Sequence record: NC_133255.1
Direction: 5' to 3' (one strand)
From: Escherichia phage vB_EcoS-26175I
DNA: 64,000 nucleotides
The notes under the pieces are model-generated. The model had not been told where the DNA came from. It saw nothing but the letters and a program-made list of their open reading frames with translations, and ran no database searches. Made by a program: the position numbers and the translations under genes. Of the stretch, positions 5,730 to 21,921 are shown piece after piece (the first letter of the stretch is position 1; each line of letters begins with the position of its first letter).

Positions 5730-6098
5730 TTATATCGCCTGAGTAAATGTACGACTAATAACGTCGTTCTGTTGTTCACGCGTCAATGCGTTAAATCGAA
5801 CAGCATAGCCAGAGACACGGATGGTCAACTGAGGATATTTTTCAGGATGTTTCTGTGCATCCAAAAGCTGATCACGGCTTAACACATTGACATTTAGGTG
5901 CTGACCACCCTCGACTTGAGGAACCACTTCCACATCTACAATGCGAAAGGCCTCAGGGTCAAAGTGAGGTGTGATACCTTCTAGATCTTCGACTAGAACT
6001 TTCTGTTTAAGTTCACCATCTTTAGAATATAGTTGAATGATCTGATTGTTATGAACAATGTTAATTACGCCAGACTTAAGACTTTGATATGCTTTCAT
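5730..6098 (-). CDS. grcA: autonomous glycyl radical cofactor (GrcA/YfiD-like)
   Basis: C-terminus [12 protein letters not shown]...[27 protein letters not shown] carries the glycyl-radical RVSGY motif and closely matches enterobacterial GrcA. Confidence 0.85.
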
Positions 6099-6462
6099 TA
6101 GATCTCCCTGATGTTAGAATTTGGCTCAGCTTTTTGTTAACCCAGAAGCAAGATAAAAACTGGAAGGCAGGCTTGCTTATTAAGTGAATACCCGATAATC
6201 GCTCGTAGTCCGGCTTGTGGATTGATAGTCCCATTCAGTTTAATAAGCACAGGAGCTTTGATTTTAACGTTGCGATCTCCTGGTCTGTTGCAACTACGTG
6301 ATTGCTCACGCTAAGACAATGGCTATCTAAAGTCCTAGCTTCTACATTTATACTCCTGGATAGCATGGAGTTGCAGTCTACTTCCTGCTGTCACGCCCGG
6401 CCATTTATAGAATGTGGACTCTCTTCTCAGCAGGATCTGGTACAAAGACCTGATCCTCTGTT

Positions 6463-8361: not shown

Positions 8362-8676
8362 AATTGAAATCTCTAGTTATCCCTTTCGTAGGGGCTAAAG
8401 GGCGATACCCATCCTAAAGACTTCAATTGTGGCGGCTCTCCGAAACTCATCACACTAACAACTAGTTGATTACTTCTGGATTCTCGCCCAGAAAATTCTC
8501 TAGAAAGGTGCACCGTTACTCTTTGAGCCATTGAATATCAAGAAGTAGAAGGACTCGAACCTTCACGAGATAGACCATTTATCTCAGCCTCGTTTTCGGG
8601 TATCTTATGAGGAGTGGATGTTCCCCTTACGCCCTTTAGGAAGCCCCGTCTACCGATTCCGGCATACTTCAAGATT

Positions 8677-10166: not shown

Positions 10167-10431
10167 AGATATTCCTTCTAGTTTACTAAGGCTATTAGCT
10201 CGGTGTGCGTATTACCCTCAGACATTAGCCAGTAGAGGATAACCGCTCTTCACAAACCCGATACACTATTCAGTTGCCGCTGAATCTAGTGGACTAATCT
10301 AGAACTTATTGCAAAGTATCCCCTGCCATTAGGGGTCTAATTGCAATTGTGCTTTTTGGCAGCCAGTCCTAGGTCGAGCTAATACCTTAGTGAACTTTGA
10401 TGAGGATTTCTCCTCATCAATTTATATAAAT

Positions 10432-10909: not shown

Positions 10910-10987
10910 TGGTGGATTGCCTGGGATTCGAACCCAGAACTGACGGATTAAAGGTCCGCTACTCTTATCCAGTTGAGCTAGCAATCC
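10910..10987 (-). tRNA. tRNA-Lys (anticodon TTT), loop ccTTTaa with C33
   Basis: perfect acceptor and T-arm (ctggg-attcgaa-cccag); anticodon loop has C at position 33. Confidence 0.55.
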
Positions 10988-11451
10988 AATTTTTCTACTA
11001 ATAATTTAAAAGCATCTAGTACAGGTACTTCAAACCATTCTCCAGATACTCTATAATCTTTAAGAAGATTATGTAATTCTTTCTCTGTACGTCTTTTATC
11101 AGACGAAAATCTGAAATGGTATAGCTTGTAGTCTCTATTAGGTGAATAAGTTTGATAACTTGCTAACCTCTCATTCACATCTATAGTCATACCTATTTTA
11201 TACATGCCTGGCCATGCTGGATTACCAATTACATATACAAAACCTTCCGTTATAGGTATTTTATGCTCCCTTTTATACTTTAAGAGATTTAAGGCTGCCA
11301 TTCGATAACAGAATCTAAACTCTGAAGTTTTTAACTTACCTTCTTTACCCGAAATTTCGTTATATTTGCTCATATAAGCTCTTATGAGCTTATCATCTAT
11401 AATGAAGTTATCAGGAAGGTTTAAGGCAGCTAAAACTTTATTAATTAGCAT
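10978..11451 (-). CDS. T5orf172-type (GIY-YIG-like) domain protein
   Basis: motif GFVYVIGNPAWPGMYKIGMT...R...Y typical of the T5orf172/MUG113 GIY-YIG-like fold. Confidence 0.5.
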   Translation of the reverse strand: MLINKVLAALNLPDNFIIDDKLIRAYMSKYNEISGKEGKLKTSEFRFCYRMAALNLLKYKREHKIPITEGFVYVIGNPAWPGMYKIGMTIDVNERLASYQTYSPNRDYKLYHFRFSSDKRRTEKELHNLLKDYRVSGEWFEVPVLDAFKLLVEKLDC

Positions 11452-11788: not shown

Positions 11789-12100
11789 AATATTCTTTGT
11801 TAACTCACTTTATAAAATATATTATACAGATATTTAAGCATAATAGCAAATGAGTTTTTAATAAATTTACTTATTGCGTAGGCCACCTCACGCTTCAAAC
11901 GCTCTGCTGACAAAGAAGTTTGCGAGACTTCTCTTAAATGCCAGAATAGACCCGCCGATCTATCGGAACCTACTCAATAAGTAAACTTTCGTTTACCTAC
12001 ACCTACCTGGTCGGGAGGATTTTCAGCGACTAGAACCGGCCGGAAACTCATCGCCTTGTTTATCTAGGAGTCCGTTCTCTAGGAAGCAGAAACCTAAATT

Positions 12101-12174
12101 TGGTGCGGTCGGAGGGAATCGAACCCTCAACTTCTGGTTGGCAACCAAAAATTATACCTTTTAACTACGAACGC
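12101..12174 (-). tRNA. tRNA-Gly (anticodon GCC)
   Basis: T-arm gaggg-aatcgaa-ccctc; loop ttGCCaa. Confidence 0.6.
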
Positions 12175-12312
12175 ATAATAAGTCAATCTAGGCAGGACTT
12201 GAACCTGCTATCACTTGTGCGGATTTACGAGAACCATTCTTTCACTCGAATCGAACGAGCTTCTACCCTCGGCAAGCTGGTGTCCCCTCTCCACCACGCT
12301 AGAATGTTTAAT

Positions 12313-12390
12313 TGGTACACCTGCTGAGATTCAAACTCAGGATCTTCCGATTAAGAGTCGGTTGCTTTAAGTCAACTAAGCTACAGATGC
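12313..12390 (-). tRNA. tRNA-Lys (anticodon CTT)
   Basis: T-arm ctgag-attcaaa-ctcag; D-arm gctt/aagc; loop ctCTTaa. Confidence 0.55.
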
Positions 12391-12930
12391 ATTTATATCT
12401 TTATAGGACTTACCAGCCAGTCTTGTATAGCGTTTTCGCAAACCATTATCTGACATGCCCAATTCTCTAGAAGCTCTAGACCATGAGTAATTTTTAACCC
12501 AGTACTCTATTTGTTCTACAGTAATTTCTTGTGGATTTTGACAGTGCTGTTTGCAGTAACTAGCTCTTTTAGCTATTTCTTTGTTGCAAATAGGACAGAA
12601 ATTTTTATCTGAACTTAATCCACGTTCTTCTATAGTTTTGAGAATATGATCAGCTTTACTTCGTACAATCAGATTTTCAAGAGAGAAATTTAGTTTATTT
12701 GTATCATCATGATCTACTTCTAAGTCAGAACTCAAAGATGGTAGATCTTTGTATACTCTCGCTAATACTCTGTGTAATAGAAGATGTTTTGATTTTCCAT
12801 TATGTTGAACAGTAAAGAAAGGATACCCAGAAGTATTAATCTGTATTGAAAGTATACGATTAACTTTAGTACTAAATACTTCCCCAGTCTCACTTATTAA
12901 GTATTCTGGATATTCGGGTATTTCTTTCAT
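12376..12930 (-). CDS. free-standing HNH homing endonuclease
   Basis: 184 aa; HNH-type motif LLLHRVLA...EVDHDDTNKLNFSLENL; embedded in tRNA array. Confidence 0.6.
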   Translation of the reverse strand: MKEIPEYPEYLISETGEVFSTKVNRILSIQINTSGYPFFTVQHNGKSKHLLLHRVLARVYKDLPSLSSDLEVDHDDTNKLNFSLENLIVRSKADHILKTIEERGLSSDKNFCPICNKEIAKRASYCKQHCQNPQEITVEQIEYWVKNYSWSRASRELGMSDNGLRKRYTRLAGKSYKDINASVA

Positions 12931-16106: not shown

Positions 16107-16196
16107 TGGAGGAAGAAGTGGGAATCGAACCCACAAGGCTATGTTTCAAACCGACAGATTAGCAATCTGCTGCAATACCGTTATGCTATTCTTCCT
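16107..16196 (-). tRNA. tRNA-Ser (anticodon GCT), long variable arm
   Basis: 87-nt body, perfect acceptor ggaagaa/ttcttcc, T-arm gtggg-aatcgaa-cccac; loop ttGCTaa. Confidence 0.7.
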
Positions 16197-16705
16197 TAAT
16201 TATTTCGGGCATATTCCCCATGAAGTTTCTCTCTCAGTTGAATTAGAGCTTCATTTGCTGCTTCAGGAGTACTGTGCAGCCCTGCGGAGTATGACTTACC
16301 TTTAAACATTATTCTATCCTGCCACTGACCAGATGCTTTGTGGTAGGATACTCCCTTAAATCCGCTAGTATTCCTAGAAGATTTACTAGCATTATGAGTA
16401 TTAGTGGTACTATCCGCTGCTCTTAAATTTAAAGGATGTATGTTTAACTTATTGCAGTCTTTATGATCAATCATTTCCGGCCTATACCCATAATATAGTA
16501 TAAATACTATGATATGAGCTAAGTAATCTTGGTGATCAACGTTAACTCTGATATACCCAGAGCTTTTGTGCAAAGATCCCGCAGGTTTATTGGCAAACTT
16601 AGTATTAAATATCTTCTCCTCTCTGGAGTTTCCGGAGAGCGGATTCCACACCAGTACACCATCTTCTAAACGGAATCTATAAAGTATAGACTCATAGTCT
16701 AGCAT
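16196..16705 (-). CDS. free-standing HNH homing endonuclease with AP2-like DNA-binding region
   Basis: 169 aa; IDHKDCNKLNIHPLNLRAA (HNH) followed by SGFKGVSYHKASGQWQ. Confidence 0.55.
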   Translation of the reverse strand: MLDYESILYRFRLEDGVLVWNPLSGNSREEKIFNTKFANKPAGSLHKSSGYIRVNVDHQDYLAHIIVFILYYGYRPEMIDHKDCNKLNIHPLNLRAADSTTNTHNASKSSRNTSGFKGVSYHKASGQWQDRIMFKGKSYSAGLHSTPEAANEALIQLREKLHGEYARNN

Positions 16706-20952: not shown

Positions 20953-21921
20953 ATTGATTCCTTTTGTTAGGTATTTTTAAGAACTCTCGTAAAAGTCCTT
21001 AAAGATACCCGGCGGTAGGTAGGGTCAGCCCCCTCAGATTAAGCTCTGCAGCCCTTCCGTCAGACAATATCTTCCAGTTTAAGTCAGGGTGACTTTGTGG
21101 TTATTCAGCTAAGGCTGATCGGCAGCTCTTAGGTCATGACTCCTCGTCGCTCTTTACTCACCGGCTAGGAAGTTATCTCGAGTTCTTCCTAGCTCTTTAG
21201 TCGTGCCATTAAGGTGCCTTCTAAGAGACTTACCTTTTCCCACTTTCGATTTGGGCATGTATCAGGTAAGGGTAGCCAAATCAGCATCCTAGTCCTACGG
21301 GGTCTCATCAAATTACATACCACCGCTTTTCGATATGTAATGCCCATGTCTATACGGGAGAAGAAAATGGGCATCTTTCTCTTCGTCTGATAGCTTGAAA
21401 AACGACTCCTCATGGAGGAAAAACTTCACTATCTAGGCTAAAGCCTAAAGTTCTTCTTTAATCCGGCAAAGCAAAACCGTAGTATATACTTTTCAGGAAT
21501 GGTTGGTTAGTCTGGAACCAACTACCGCGTGGTTTTGGCAGTGCACAGCTGCCTGCGATTGCTTCGCCATTAGAAGCACCAGTTATCCAACTCTTTCCGA
21601 CCGTGGGACTCGAACCCACATCTTCAGGCGGTGAAGCCCTAATAATACCTATTATACTAGGACGGCAGTGTTGTTACATAAGTGGTTTCGGCACCCCACT
21701 AACATAAACTAGAGAAGAGTTTACGAGATTTCGGGACAGCTCCCGAGTTTTCCGCAGATTTTCAGTTCCCTATCAATAGCAATAAGCGTTAGCTCGTAGC
21801 CTCTCTCAGAGTACTTACTAGTCTCCAACTCACCGACTCTATTCAGTGGAATAGCTATCCTAGTAGGAGTCACTAAACTCACTCAGCGTAATCGGCTCGC
21901 TGTTCTCTAATTTATGAATCT

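What the first reader, a model, noticed from the sequence alone, without database searches (positions are those of the whole stretch)
12184..12305. Second atypical ~120-nt tRNA-like element with two T-arm-like hairpins
Two hairpins with T-loop-like sequences (gcagg-acttgaa-cctgc at 12192-12208 and actcg-aatcgaa-cgagc at 12244-12260) are bracketed by a 6/7-bp terminal helix (aatctag at 12185-12191 with ctagaat at 12299-12305). No standard anticodon or D arm is recognisable. It sits between tRNA-Gly(GCC) and tRNA-Lys(CTT).
Basis: seen in the sequence. Interest (0 to 1): 0.55.

Follow-up and report, generated by a model that had tools for sequence, protein, structure and literature searches.

The report
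Phage T5 "RNA2" tRNA-like RNA gene
This is the gene for "RNA2", a tRNA-shaped RNA of T5-like phages that has been annotated for about 20 years without a known function; its anticodon loop is replaced by a highly conserved second tRNA-like knob, so it cannot decode codons, and the same RNA turns up in the tRNA clusters of many unrelated phages.

Summary
The window is a T5-like phage. The element lies on the minus strand (RNA 5' end at 12305, 3' end at 12184) between tRNA-Lys(CTT) and tRNA-Gly(GCC). It is the ortholog of "rna2 / RNA2, tRNA-like RNA with unknown functions", annotated in GenBank for T5, BF23 and Salmonella phage 5, so it is already known. It is absent from Rfam and its function is unknown.

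Comparison of about 50 homologs gives a fold supported by covariation. In place of the anticodon loop there is a ~55-nt module. This module is a helical extension ending in a three-way junction that carries the second T-loop hairpin and a mini-hairpin with a UGG loop.

The module has the strand order of an acceptor-less, circularly permuted tRNA core, as in YrlA. It is much more conserved than the tRNA body. It is not a decayed tRNA pair, not an intron, and not a YrlA, tmRNA or T4 species 1/2 homolog.

Homologs occur in T5-like phages, Acinetobacter T4-like phages, jumbo and ~50-kb phage contigs, and a 47-tRNA array. They nearly always sit inside tRNA arrays on the same strand.

Most likely function (inferred): a processed, non-decoding tRNA mimic that presents the conserved module to a partner.

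The parts
12184..12305 (-). Whole RNA2 gene. RNA position p corresponds to window coordinate 12306-p. It runs from A1 at 12305 to the discriminator G122 at 12184. No CCA is encoded.
   Evidence: CM R1 hit at 12184-12304, 118.4 bits, E 6e-28. 115 of 125 positions are identical to the annotated rna2 of AJ604531.
12299..12305 (-). Acceptor stem, 5' strand (AUUCUAG).
   Evidence: Pairs with 12185-12191. All 6 modelled pairs show compensatory changes.
12185..12191 (-). Acceptor stem, 3' strand (CUAGAUU), which follows the T arm directly as in a tRNA.
   Evidence: In 3 other lineages N73-CCA is encoded right after this strand.
12278..12296 (-). D arm: stem UGGUG/CACCA and loop GAGAGGGGA, which contains the GG.
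   Evidence: 5 of 5 pairs have compensatory changes and 89% of cells are paired. Metagenomic homologs have the canonical UAGCUUAACGGUAGAGC.
12273..12276 (-). Anticodon-type stem, 5' strand (CUUG), preceded by G29, the equivalent of tRNA position 26.
   Evidence: Pairs with 12214-12217 (CAAG). 100% paired in A3, with types UA/CG/GC/AU.
12214..12217 (-). Anticodon-type stem, 3' strand (CAAG), followed by the 5-nt variable loop UGAUA (12209-12213).
12265..12268 (-). Extension helix P_ext, 5' strand (GGGU).
   Evidence: Pairs with AUCC at 12221-12224. The closing pair alternates U-A and C-G in several independent lineages (CG 21, UA 8; 0 of 500 shuffles as good).
12218..12229 (-). Nearly invariant 3' strand CGUAAAUCCGCA. 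It comprises C77 (pairs with G43), G78, the UAA bulge, AUCC (pairs with GGGU) and GCA.
12262..12263 (-). Junction helix Pj, 5' strand (G43, A44). A44 pairs with U76 (12230) and G43 pairs with C77 (12229).
   Evidence: The A44-U76 pair shows all four Watson-Crick types (AU 21, UA 6, CG 2, GC 1). In the independent set there are 6 U-A, 3 G-C, 2 C-G and 1 A-U.
12244..12260 (-). Hairpin H1: a second T arm (GCUCG-UUCGAUU-CGAGU) at the three-way junction.
   Evidence: 4 of 5 pairs have compensatory changes. The G-C pair that closes the loop and the UUCRAUU loop are invariant.
12231..12239 (-). Mini-hairpin H2 (GAA-UGG-UUC). It is D-arm-like, with GG in its loop, and stacks directly on Pj.
   Evidence: Invariant in close relatives. 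Compensatory GUA/UAC and UUA/UAA variants occur in distant ones (pair 71-90: UA 10, AU 3, CG 1).
12192..12208 (-). T arm of the tRNA body (GCAGG-UUCAAGU-CCUGC).
   Evidence: 4 of 5 pairs have compensatory changes and 97% of cells are paired.

Best explanation
This is the rna2 gene of a T5-like phage. It encodes a conserved, structured, non-decoding tRNA mimic.

Shown here:
- It lies on the same strand as the flanking tRNA genes, 7 nt after tRNA-Lys and 9 nt before tRNA-Gly, with no promoter or terminator of its own.
- It folds as a class-I tRNA body whose anticodon loop is replaced by a ~55-nt module.
- The module consists of a helical extension (GGGU/AUCC, a UAA bulge, then 2-3 more pairs) ending in a three-way junction. 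The junction carries a T-loop hairpin and a GAA-UGG-UUC mini-hairpin.
- The strand order of the module (stem, short linker, T arm, linker, D-like arm, stem) is that of an acceptor-less, circularly permuted tRNA core.
- The module is far more conserved than the body.

Inferred:
- The RNA is co-transcribed with the tRNA operon.
- It is excised by the tRNA-processing enzymes (RNase P at A1, 3' trimming) and given CCA by the host enzyme. It is then stabilised by its tRNA fold.
- The UGG loop docks on the second T-loop to form a second 'elbow' at the far end of a long rod.
- This invariant head is the functional part and binds a host or phage partner. The RNA therefore acts as a decoy or adaptor for a factor that handles tRNAs, for example a tRNA-targeting defence or a tRNA-processing enzyme.
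- It does not decode codons on the ribosome.
For: - Identity: 100% identical to T5-like phage genomes, and ~91% identical to the feature annotated 'rna2: RNA2, tRNA-like RNA with unknown functions' in AJ604531. It is also annotated in AJ604530 and AY692264.
- Fold: 94% of cells paired against 74% in shuffles, with slid controls at 26-50% and 24 of 32 pairs compensatory. An independent set of 22 more distant homologs gives 87% against 58%, with covariation score 0.67 against 0.16.
- Inner helices: supported.
- Conservation: 21 of 55 module columns are invariant, against 0 of 31 and 5 of 31 in the two halves of the body.
- Context: the RNA sits inside same-strand tRNA arrays in 13 of 15 newly found loci, and in the Acinetobacter T4-like phages.
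- 3' end: N73-CCA is encoded exactly after the acceptor strand in 3 independent lineages.
- No own signals and no coding: no promoter or terminator in the flanking spacers and no meaningful ORF.
- Not a decoding tRNA: ARAGORN does not call it, and the Rfam tRNA model gives 12.5 bits against the threshold of 29.
Against: - No expression, end-mapping or binding data were available, so the processing route and the partner are inference only.
- The window copy encodes no CCA, although its neighbouring tRNAs do.
- U8 is replaced by C in T5-like copies.
- The acceptor stem has one U.U mismatch here, and it is weak in several Acinetobacter-phage copies (in phage 133 it runs into the next tRNA).
- The UGG-loop/T-loop contact involves only invariant bases, so covariation cannot test it.
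- No conserved neighbouring protein gene points to a partner.
- The single sequence folds no better than shuffles.
Confidence: 0.6

Rival explanations
1. It is a pure processing signal (a 't-element'). The tRNA-shaped body only recruits RNase P and 3' processing enzymes to cut the long tRNA/ORF transcripts, and the excised RNA itself has no function in trans.
For: It sits in polycistronic tRNA/small-ORF regions. It has the acceptor/T-arm minihelix that RNase P needs.
Against: A processing signal needs only the acceptor and T arm. Here those parts vary freely, while the distal module has 21 of 55 invariant columns across different phage families. The flanking tRNAs already provide processing sites 7 and 9 nt away. 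Copies also exist with no tRNA gene within the 5-14 kb of flanking sequence held (L003, L110, L138).
Confidence: 0.1
2. It is a Y-RNA-like RNA of the YrlA type. The inner module would be the circularly permuted tRNA-like domain, and the stem with the 5'-strand motif GNCGAGGG would bind a Ro60/Rsr protein.
For: The inner module has the same strand order as YrlA, which runs stem 5' strand, V, T, AS, D, stem 3' strand (PMC4201824; bioRxiv 10.1101/312249). The T5-type 5' strand GGCGAGGG resembles the YrlA motif GNCGAAN0-1G. YrlA-like RNAs do occur in phages.
Against: The Rfam YrlA model RF02553 finds the Bxz1 YrlA-like RNA (32.5 bits) but reports nothing on RNA2 at E up to 10. RNA2 has no acceptor-like hairpin between its T and D elements, and its D element is only 3 bp with a 3-nt loop. 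No ORF of 90 aa or more within about 4 kb matches a TROVE/Ro60 domain. The CGAG part of the motif is not conserved in distant homologs, where only AGGGU is kept. From my own knowledge, E. coli K-12 lacks Rsr.
Confidence: 0.07
3. It is a tRNA precursor with an unusual intron. The ~55-nt insert would be removed to give a normal decoding tRNA.
For: The insert sits exactly where the anticodon loop should be, and the rest is a complete class-I tRNA body.
Against: The insert is much more conserved than the 'exons'. No sensible 7-nt anticodon loop with U33 can be made from the flanking bases (CCGA...GCA). There is no bulge-helix-bulge motif, and 55 nt is too short for a group I intron (from established knowledge of those classes). 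Covariation shows that the insert forms a helix continuous with the anticodon-type stem.
Confidence: 0.04
4. It is a decayed tRNA pair or pseudogene: two degenerate tRNA genes fused together, with no function.
For: It has two T arms in 120 nt, no anticodon loop, and is missed by tRNA finders.
Against: It is conserved in more than 400 T5-like genomes, in T4-like Acinetobacter phages and in many metagenomic phages. Compensatory changes occur in every helix, and long stretches are invariant.
Confidence: 0.01
5. It is a miniature tmRNA-like RNA. The module would fold as a pseudoknot like tmRNA PK1, with CGAGGG/UUCUCG plus UGG/CCG.
For: It has a tRNA-like domain with a long helix in place of the anticodon arm. 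From memory only, E. coli tmRNA has UGCCGAGGGG...CCUCGUAAAAAGCCGCA, against UGCCGAGGGU...UCUCGUAAAUCCGCA here. RNAalifold proposes the UGG/CCG pairing.
Against: The helix CGAGGG/UUCUCG has no covariation support (166 of 500 shuffles are as good). It is also broken by the U-to-A change, which is compensated within H2 instead. There is no ARAGORN tmRNA call and no Rfam tmRNA hit. There is no G3.U70 pair and no reading frame.
Confidence: 0.03

Closest known systems
rna2 / RNA2 of bacteriophages T5, BF23 and Salmonella phage 5 (GenBank AY692264, AJ604530, AJ604531; 'tRNA-like RNA with unknown functions')
   Same: It is the ortholog: ~91% identical over the full length, with the same position in the tRNA gene region and the same strand as the tRNAs.
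   Different: Nothing essential differs. In this phage the gene sits between tRNA-Lys(CTT) and tRNA-Gly(GCC), whereas in T5 it sits between an ORF and RNAIV. The records give no structure or function.
YrlA (Y RNA-like A, Rfam RF02553), a circularly permuted tRNA mimic bound by Ro60/Rsr
   Same: The inner module has the same permuted order (stem, variable linker, T arm, D-like arm, stem), a canonical T-loop and a GG loop that could form an elbow. The family also occurs in phages.
   Different: RNA2 gives no match to the YrlA covariance model. It has no acceptor-like hairpin and only a minimal D element. There is no Ro60 gene nearby. In RNA2 the stem is capped by a complete tRNA body with free acceptor ends rather than by free 5'/3' ends.
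Canonical tRNA (Rfam RF00005)
   Same: A 7-bp acceptor stem, D arm with GG, anticodon-type stem, 5-nt variable loop, T arm with UUCRANU, discriminator, sometimes an encoded CCA, and a location in tRNA arrays.
   Different: There is no anticodon loop: ~55 nt are inserted in its place. It scores 12.5 bits against the threshold of 29, ARAGORN does not call it, and U8 is C in T5-like copies.
T4 species 1 and species 2 RNAs (rnaC, rnaD), stable small RNAs in the T4 tRNA cluster
   Same: The concept is the same: small RNAs of unknown function encoded within a phage tRNA cluster. By inspection of its sequence, rnaC also ends in a T arm plus an acceptor-like strand.
   Different: They are not homologous. 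The RNA2 model finds only ordinary tRNAs in the T4 region (L054), and the sequences differ.
tmRNA
   Same: A tRNA-like domain whose anticodon arm is replaced by a long helix leading to a functional module.
   Different: RNA2 has no reading frame, no pseudoknots supported by covariation and no G3.U70. It is about 120 nt long, against about 360 nt for tmRNA, and it is not detected by ARAGORN or Rfam.

Membership tests
T5-type rna2 (annotated phage small RNA) | Full-length sequence homology to the annotated rna2 features | tested here: met
   115 of 125 positions are identical to AJ604531 rna2. blastn hits overlap the 'rna2' features in AJ604531, AJ604530 and AY692264.
T5-type rna2 (annotated phage small RNA) | Location in the tRNA gene region of a T5-like phage, on the same strand as the tRNAs | tested here: met
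   The window is 100% identical to T5-like genomes. The element lies between two minus-strand tRNAs.
T5-type rna2 (annotated phage small RNA) | Expressed as a discrete RNA | not testable with these tools
   No RNA-seq data were available. The GenBank notes call RNA1-3 'tRNA-like' and other RNAs 'stable', so expression of RNA2 may never have been shown.
tRNA (RF00005) | Acceptor stem, D arm and T arm in cloverleaf order | tested here: met
   All three helices covary.
tRNA (RF00005) | 5-bp anticodon stem closed by a 7-nt loop with U33 and an anticodon | tested here: not met
   The stem is closed by a ~55-nt structured insert. ARAGORN gives no call, and Rfam tRNA scores 12.5 bits against the threshold of 29.
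YrlA (RF02553) | Match to the family covariance model | tested here: not met
   No hit at E up to 10 on the 137-nt region. The same model finds the Bxz1 RNA at 32.5 bits.
YrlA (RF02553) | Encoded within about 4 kb of a Ro60/Rsr (TROVE) gene on the same strand | tested here: not met
   Of the 8 ORFs of 90 aa or more within about 4 kb, the 6 of 115 aa or more were scanned. They are DUF7448, T5orf172/MUG113, two HNH endonucleases and two with no match; none is TROVE.
YrlA (RF02553) | Permuted order: stem, V, T arm, acceptor-like hairpin, D arm, stem | tested here: inconclusive
   The order is the same, but the acceptor-like hairpin is replaced by a 3-5-nt linker and the D arm is reduced to 3 bp plus UGG.
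tmRNA | tRNA-like domain with G3.U70, pseudoknots and a tag reading frame | tested here: not met
   No ARAGORN or Rfam tmRNA call. Position 3:70 is never G.U in the distant set and is G.U in only 1 of 32 sequences in A3. The PK1-like helix is not supported.
T4 species 1/2 RNAs (rnaC, rnaD) | Sequence or structure homology | tested here: not met
   The RNA2 model gives only tRNA hits of 24 bits or less in the T4 tRNA region that contains rnaC and rnaD.

The most novel reading that the evidence does not exclude
RNA2 may define a widespread RNA class, not catalogued in Rfam, that travels with phage (and possibly cellular) tRNA arrays. It would be a 'double-elbow' tRNA mimic, in which a complete tRNA body is fused through its anticodon stem to an acceptor-less, circularly permuted tRNA core. 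It would act in trans as a decoy or adaptor for a conserved bacterial factor that handles tRNAs, for example a tRNA-targeting immune nuclease, a tRNA-modifying toxin, or a processing or quality-control enzyme. That would add an RNA-based layer to the counter-defence role already proposed for phage tRNA sets.
Probability: 0.3. Interest if true: 0.75.

Novelty: already known. Interest (0 to 1): 0.45.

Why it matters
Large phage tRNA sets are now viewed as tools for surviving degradation of the host's translation machinery and attack by tRNA-cleaving defences. RNA2 travels with these sets in T5-like, T4-like, jumbo and other phages, yet it has been ignored since it was annotated and is missing from Rfam and from current genome annotations. 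Some records even lay a 'hypothetical protein' over it.

This work gives a fold supported by covariation, a searchable model and a clear functional 'head' (AGGGU ... T-loop hairpin ... AUGGU ... CGUAAAUCCGCA). These make the long-open question of what these phage tRNA-like RNAs do directly testable, by deletion, point mutation and pull-down. For the scan itself, the finding is a correct detection of a known but uncharacterised gene, not a new one.

Tried and rejected
1. Rfam 15 over 16 kb and over the element alone: no family is hit; tRNA scores only 12.5 bits.
2. ARAGORN: no tRNA or tmRNA call for the element.
3. Single-sequence folding: no better than shuffles, so uninformative.
4. Inner helix CGAGGG/UUCUCG, which was my first by-eye guess: no covariation support, and contradicted by distant homologs.
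5. UGG/CCR pairing proposed by RNAalifold: all bases are invariant, so it is untestable. It is also incompatible with the supported GGGU/AUCC helix.
6. Hairpin CG-UAAAUC-CG, modelled on the 23S GTPase-centre loop recalled from memory: the variants CA...A do not pair.
7. Homology to T4 rnaC/rnaD: none.
8. YrlA membership: not met.
9. Intron reading: rejected on conservation and the lack of splice motifs.
10. Antisense target in the window for the invariant UGAAAGAAUGGUUC: matches are no more frequent than chance.
11. Coding potential: only short spurious ORFs.
12. A conserved neighbouring protein as partner: none seen in L003 or in the window.
13. Literature: no paper in the held library discusses T5 RNA2.
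14. One genome-collection match (Chitinibacter, L052) lies in what reads as protein-coding sequence by eye and gave no RNA2-level score with the model (no listed hit at all; every non-homolog scored 31 bits or less), so I treat it as a false positive.

Full report
**What the window is and where the element lies.** ARAGORN finds 31 tRNA genes in the window, all on the minus strand. The 501 bases around the finding are 100% identical to several T5-like phages (Demerecviridae), for example Escherichia phage vB_EcoS-26175. The element fills the gap between tRNA-Lys(CTT) (12313-12390) and tRNA-Gly(GCC) (12101-12174). Read on the minus strand, the RNA is:

AUUCUAG CG UGGUG GAGAGGGGA CACCA G CUUG CCGA GGGU AGAA GCUCG UUCGAUU CGAGU GAAA GAA UGG UUC U CG UAA AUCC GCA CAAG UGAUA GCAGG UUCAAGU CCUGC CUAGAUU G

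RNA position p corresponds to window coordinate 12306-p.

**The observation.** They are the reverse complements of two canonical T arms (loops UUCGAUU and UUCAAGU) and of a 7-position acceptor stem with one U.U mismatch. There is indeed no anticodon loop. Rfam has no family for the element, and ARAGORN does not call it.

**It is a known, annotated gene.** A blastn search with the element finds 425 phage records, 416 of them covering at least 80% of it. In AJ604531 (Salmonella phage 5 tRNA gene region) the matching stretch is annotated 'rna2: RNA2, tRNA-like RNA with unknown functions'. AJ604530 (BF23) and AY692264 (T5) also annotate rna2. Most other genomes leave it unannotated or lay a 'hypothetical protein' over it. 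Aligning the annotated small RNAs of AJ604531 to the window also places three others, all on the minus strand: rna1 at 8536-8673, rnaIV at 11875-11975 and rna2H at 10190-10384. No paper in the held library discusses RNA2.

**Homologs far outside the T5 group.** The central part of the element is 84% identical to an unannotated gap between two tRNAs of the T4-like Acinetobacter phage 133. Pattern scans and blastn then recovered further copies:
- Other Acinetobacter T4-like phages: AB1I1M-1, Acj9 and ZZ1.
- Divergent Demerecviridae: Pantoea AAS21, Erwinia KEY, Providencia PSTCR5, Serratia Slocum and Salmonella SIY1lw.
- Metagenomic contigs.

I built a covariance model (R1) from 17 diverse sequences. 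It separates true homologs (82-126 bits; the window copy scores 118.4 bits, E 6e-28) from ordinary tRNAs (31 bits or less). A looser gapped pattern scan of IMG/VR, screened with R1, added 22 more distant members (51-103 bits) in contigs of 14 to 363 kb. In 13 of 15 of these new loci the RNA lies inside a same-strand tRNA array. Three copies (L003, L110, L138) have no tRNA gene in the 5-14 kb of flanking sequence held. One copy sits in a 47-tRNA array on a 1.46-Mb metagenomic contig.

**Secondary structure of the tRNA body.** On the 32-sequence alignment A3:
- 94.2% of pair cells form standard pairs, against 73.9% in shuffles. When the partners are slid by 1-3 columns the figure falls to 26-50%.
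- 24 of 32 pairs show compensatory changes.

A3 was fitted to the model, so it leans towards it. However, RNAalifold independently recovers the acceptor stem, D stem, H1 and T arm. The set A4, nearly all of whose sequences were not used to build the model, gives 87.0% against 57.7% and a covariation score of 0.67 against 0.16.

The body is a class-I tRNA. It has a 7-bp acceptor stem, two linker bases, a D arm, one base equivalent to position 26, a 4-6-bp anticodon-type stem (CUUG/CAAG here; CCUG/CAGG, CCUC/GAGG, CCCAU/AUGGG, GCGCUG/CAGUGC and others elsewhere), a 5-nt variable loop, a T arm and a discriminator.

**Secondary structure of the insert.** I tested several alternatives for the insert.
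- My first guess, CGAGGG/UUCUCG, has no support.
- The helix GGGU/AUCC is supported. Its closing pair switches between U-A and C-G repeatedly within the T5-like, the Acinetobacter and the metagenomic groups.
- Beyond an invariant UAA bulge the helix continues with G43-C77 and A44-U76. The A44-U76 pair shows all four Watson-Crick combinations.
- The helix ends in a three-way junction carrying the T-loop hairpin H1 and the mini-hairpin GAA-UGG-UUC (H2).
- H2 is invariant among close relatives but shows compensatory GUA/UAC and UUA/UAA variants in distant ones.

**What the architecture amounts to.** Going 5' to 3' from the extension helix, the order is stem strand, short linker, T arm, 3-5-nt linker, D-like hairpin with a GG loop, stem strand. 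This is the order of a circularly permuted tRNA without an acceptor stem. It is the same topology described for the tRNA-like domain of YrlA (PMC4201824 and bioRxiv 10.1101/312249). RNA2 therefore looks like two tRNA-like cores joined head to head through their anticodon stems, with only the outer core having free acceptor ends. That the UGG loop docks on the H1 T-loop to form a second elbow is an inference from tRNA and YrlA structures. All the bases involved are invariant, so covariation cannot test it.

**Where selection acts.** Among 16 diverse representatives, the insert has 21 invariant columns out of 55 (mean entropy 0.56 bits). The two halves of the tRNA body have 0 of 31 and 5 of 31 invariant columns (1.2-1.5 bits). 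In the widest set, the constant elements are AGGGU, GUUCGAUUC, AUGGU and CGUAAAUCCGCA. The body is thus maintained only as a shape, while the distal module is maintained as sequence. This is the opposite of what is expected for an intron or for a mere processing signal.

**Maturation.** There is no promoter-like or terminator-like site in the 7-nt and 9-nt spacers to the flanking tRNAs and no meaningful ORF. Co-transcription with the tRNA operon, followed by excision by the tRNA-processing enzymes, is therefore the natural reading, but it is inferred. The window copy encodes no CCA. In three independent lineages (AAS21/KEY, SIY1lw, L039) N73-CCA is encoded exactly after the acceptor strand. 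This is unlikely by chance (about 0.003 by a rough binomial estimate of my own) and suggests that the mature 3' end is tRNA-like. Acceptor-stem sequences and discriminators vary freely, and position 3:70 is essentially never G.U. No conserved aminoacylation identity is therefore visible.

**Comparison with known families.**
- The element is not a YrlA. RF02553 detects the YrlA-like RNA next to the putative Ro60 gene (gp220, annotated 'RNA-binding protein') of mycobacteriophage Bxz1 at 32.5 bits, but reports nothing on RNA2. No ORF of 90 aa or more within about 4 kb of the element matches a TROVE domain.
- It is not related to T4 species 1/2 RNAs.
- It is not a tmRNA. A resemblance of the window sequence to the PK1 region of E. 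coli tmRNA is recalled from memory only. It is limited to bases that are not conserved across the family, and the PK1-like fold is contradicted by covariation.

**Function.** Nothing here shows function. I commit to the following. RNA2 is a processed, stable, non-decoding tRNA mimic. Its tRNA body gives it maturation and stability, and its invariant distal module binds a partner common to many Gammaproteobacteria and other hosts. Its constant association with phage tRNA arrays points to a role around the tRNA pool. It could be a decoy or inhibitor of a tRNA-targeting defence or toxin, or an adaptor for a tRNA-processing or quality-control enzyme. I put about 0.9 on the structural and genetic part of this statement, and about 0.25-0.3 on the decoy/adaptor part.

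**Verdict.** The finding is a correct detection of a real RNA gene that is under selection and already annotated (T5 rna2), so its novelty is 'already known'. Three things appear not to be catalogued: the fold, the family's breadth, and the permuted-tRNA nature of its conserved head. They make an old open question testable, which is why I give moderate interest.

Noticed in passing
window 8536-8673 (minus strand): The other 'atypical tRNA-like element' is the ortholog of the annotated rna1/RNA1 of AJ604531 (120 of 138 aligned positions identical). By eye it has a class-II-like D arm and a T arm (GAAGGUUCGAGUCCUUC), with a large insert. The RNA2 model gives it at most ~20 bits as a tRNA body with an insertion.
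   Followed up: partly
window 11875-11975 and 10190-10384 (minus strand): These are orthologs of the annotated 'stable RNAs with unknown functions' rnaIV and rna2H of T5-like phages. By contrast, rnaI, rnaIII and rna3 of AJ604531 have no good counterpart in this window.
   Followed up: partly
window 21594-21667 (minus strand): ARAGORN calls a 74-nt 'tRNA-SeC' with anticodon UCA, and the Rfam tRNA model scores it at only 33 bits. It is too short for a real selenocysteine tRNA, so it may be an opal-suppressor-like or Trp-like phage tRNA.
   Followed up: no
window 12376-12930, 16196-16705 and 10978-11451 (minus strand): Mobile endonuclease genes are interspersed with the tRNAs: two HNH endonucleases (NUMOD4+HNH_3, and HNH_3+AP2) and a T5orf172/MUG113 (GIY-YIG-like) protein. 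The first starts 15 nt inside tRNA-Lys(CTT) in ORF terms.
   Followed up: partly
L038 (metagenome contig Ga0308158_10000004, 1.46 Mb), RNA2 homolog at 6024-6138: An RNA2 homolog with a fully canonical U8/A9/D arm lies inside an array of 47 tRNA genes within 8.3 kb. The contig is larger than any known phage genome, so the family may also exist in cellular tRNA arrays.
   Followed up: no
L053 7053-7127, L020 6751-6823, L039 4834-4910, L069 12400-12474: Several phage contigs that carry RNA2 also encode a tRNA with anticodon CUA (called 'tRNA-Pyl' by ARAGORN), which is a likely amber suppressor. In L053 it lies directly upstream of RNA2.
   Followed up: no
L002 2464-2572 (Acinetobacter phage 133): In this copy only 4 nt separate the T arm from the 5' end of the next tRNA (tRNA-Cys). 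The acceptor 3' strand is therefore missing or shared with the neighbouring tRNA. The record annotates nothing in this gap.
   Followed up: partly
A3/A4 alignments; pair G43-C77 of the window RNA: The otherwise invariant G-C pair next to the covarying A44-U76 pair is replaced by U.U in three independent homologs (L039, L150, L148). This hints at a non-Watson-Crick alternative at that position.
   Followed up: no
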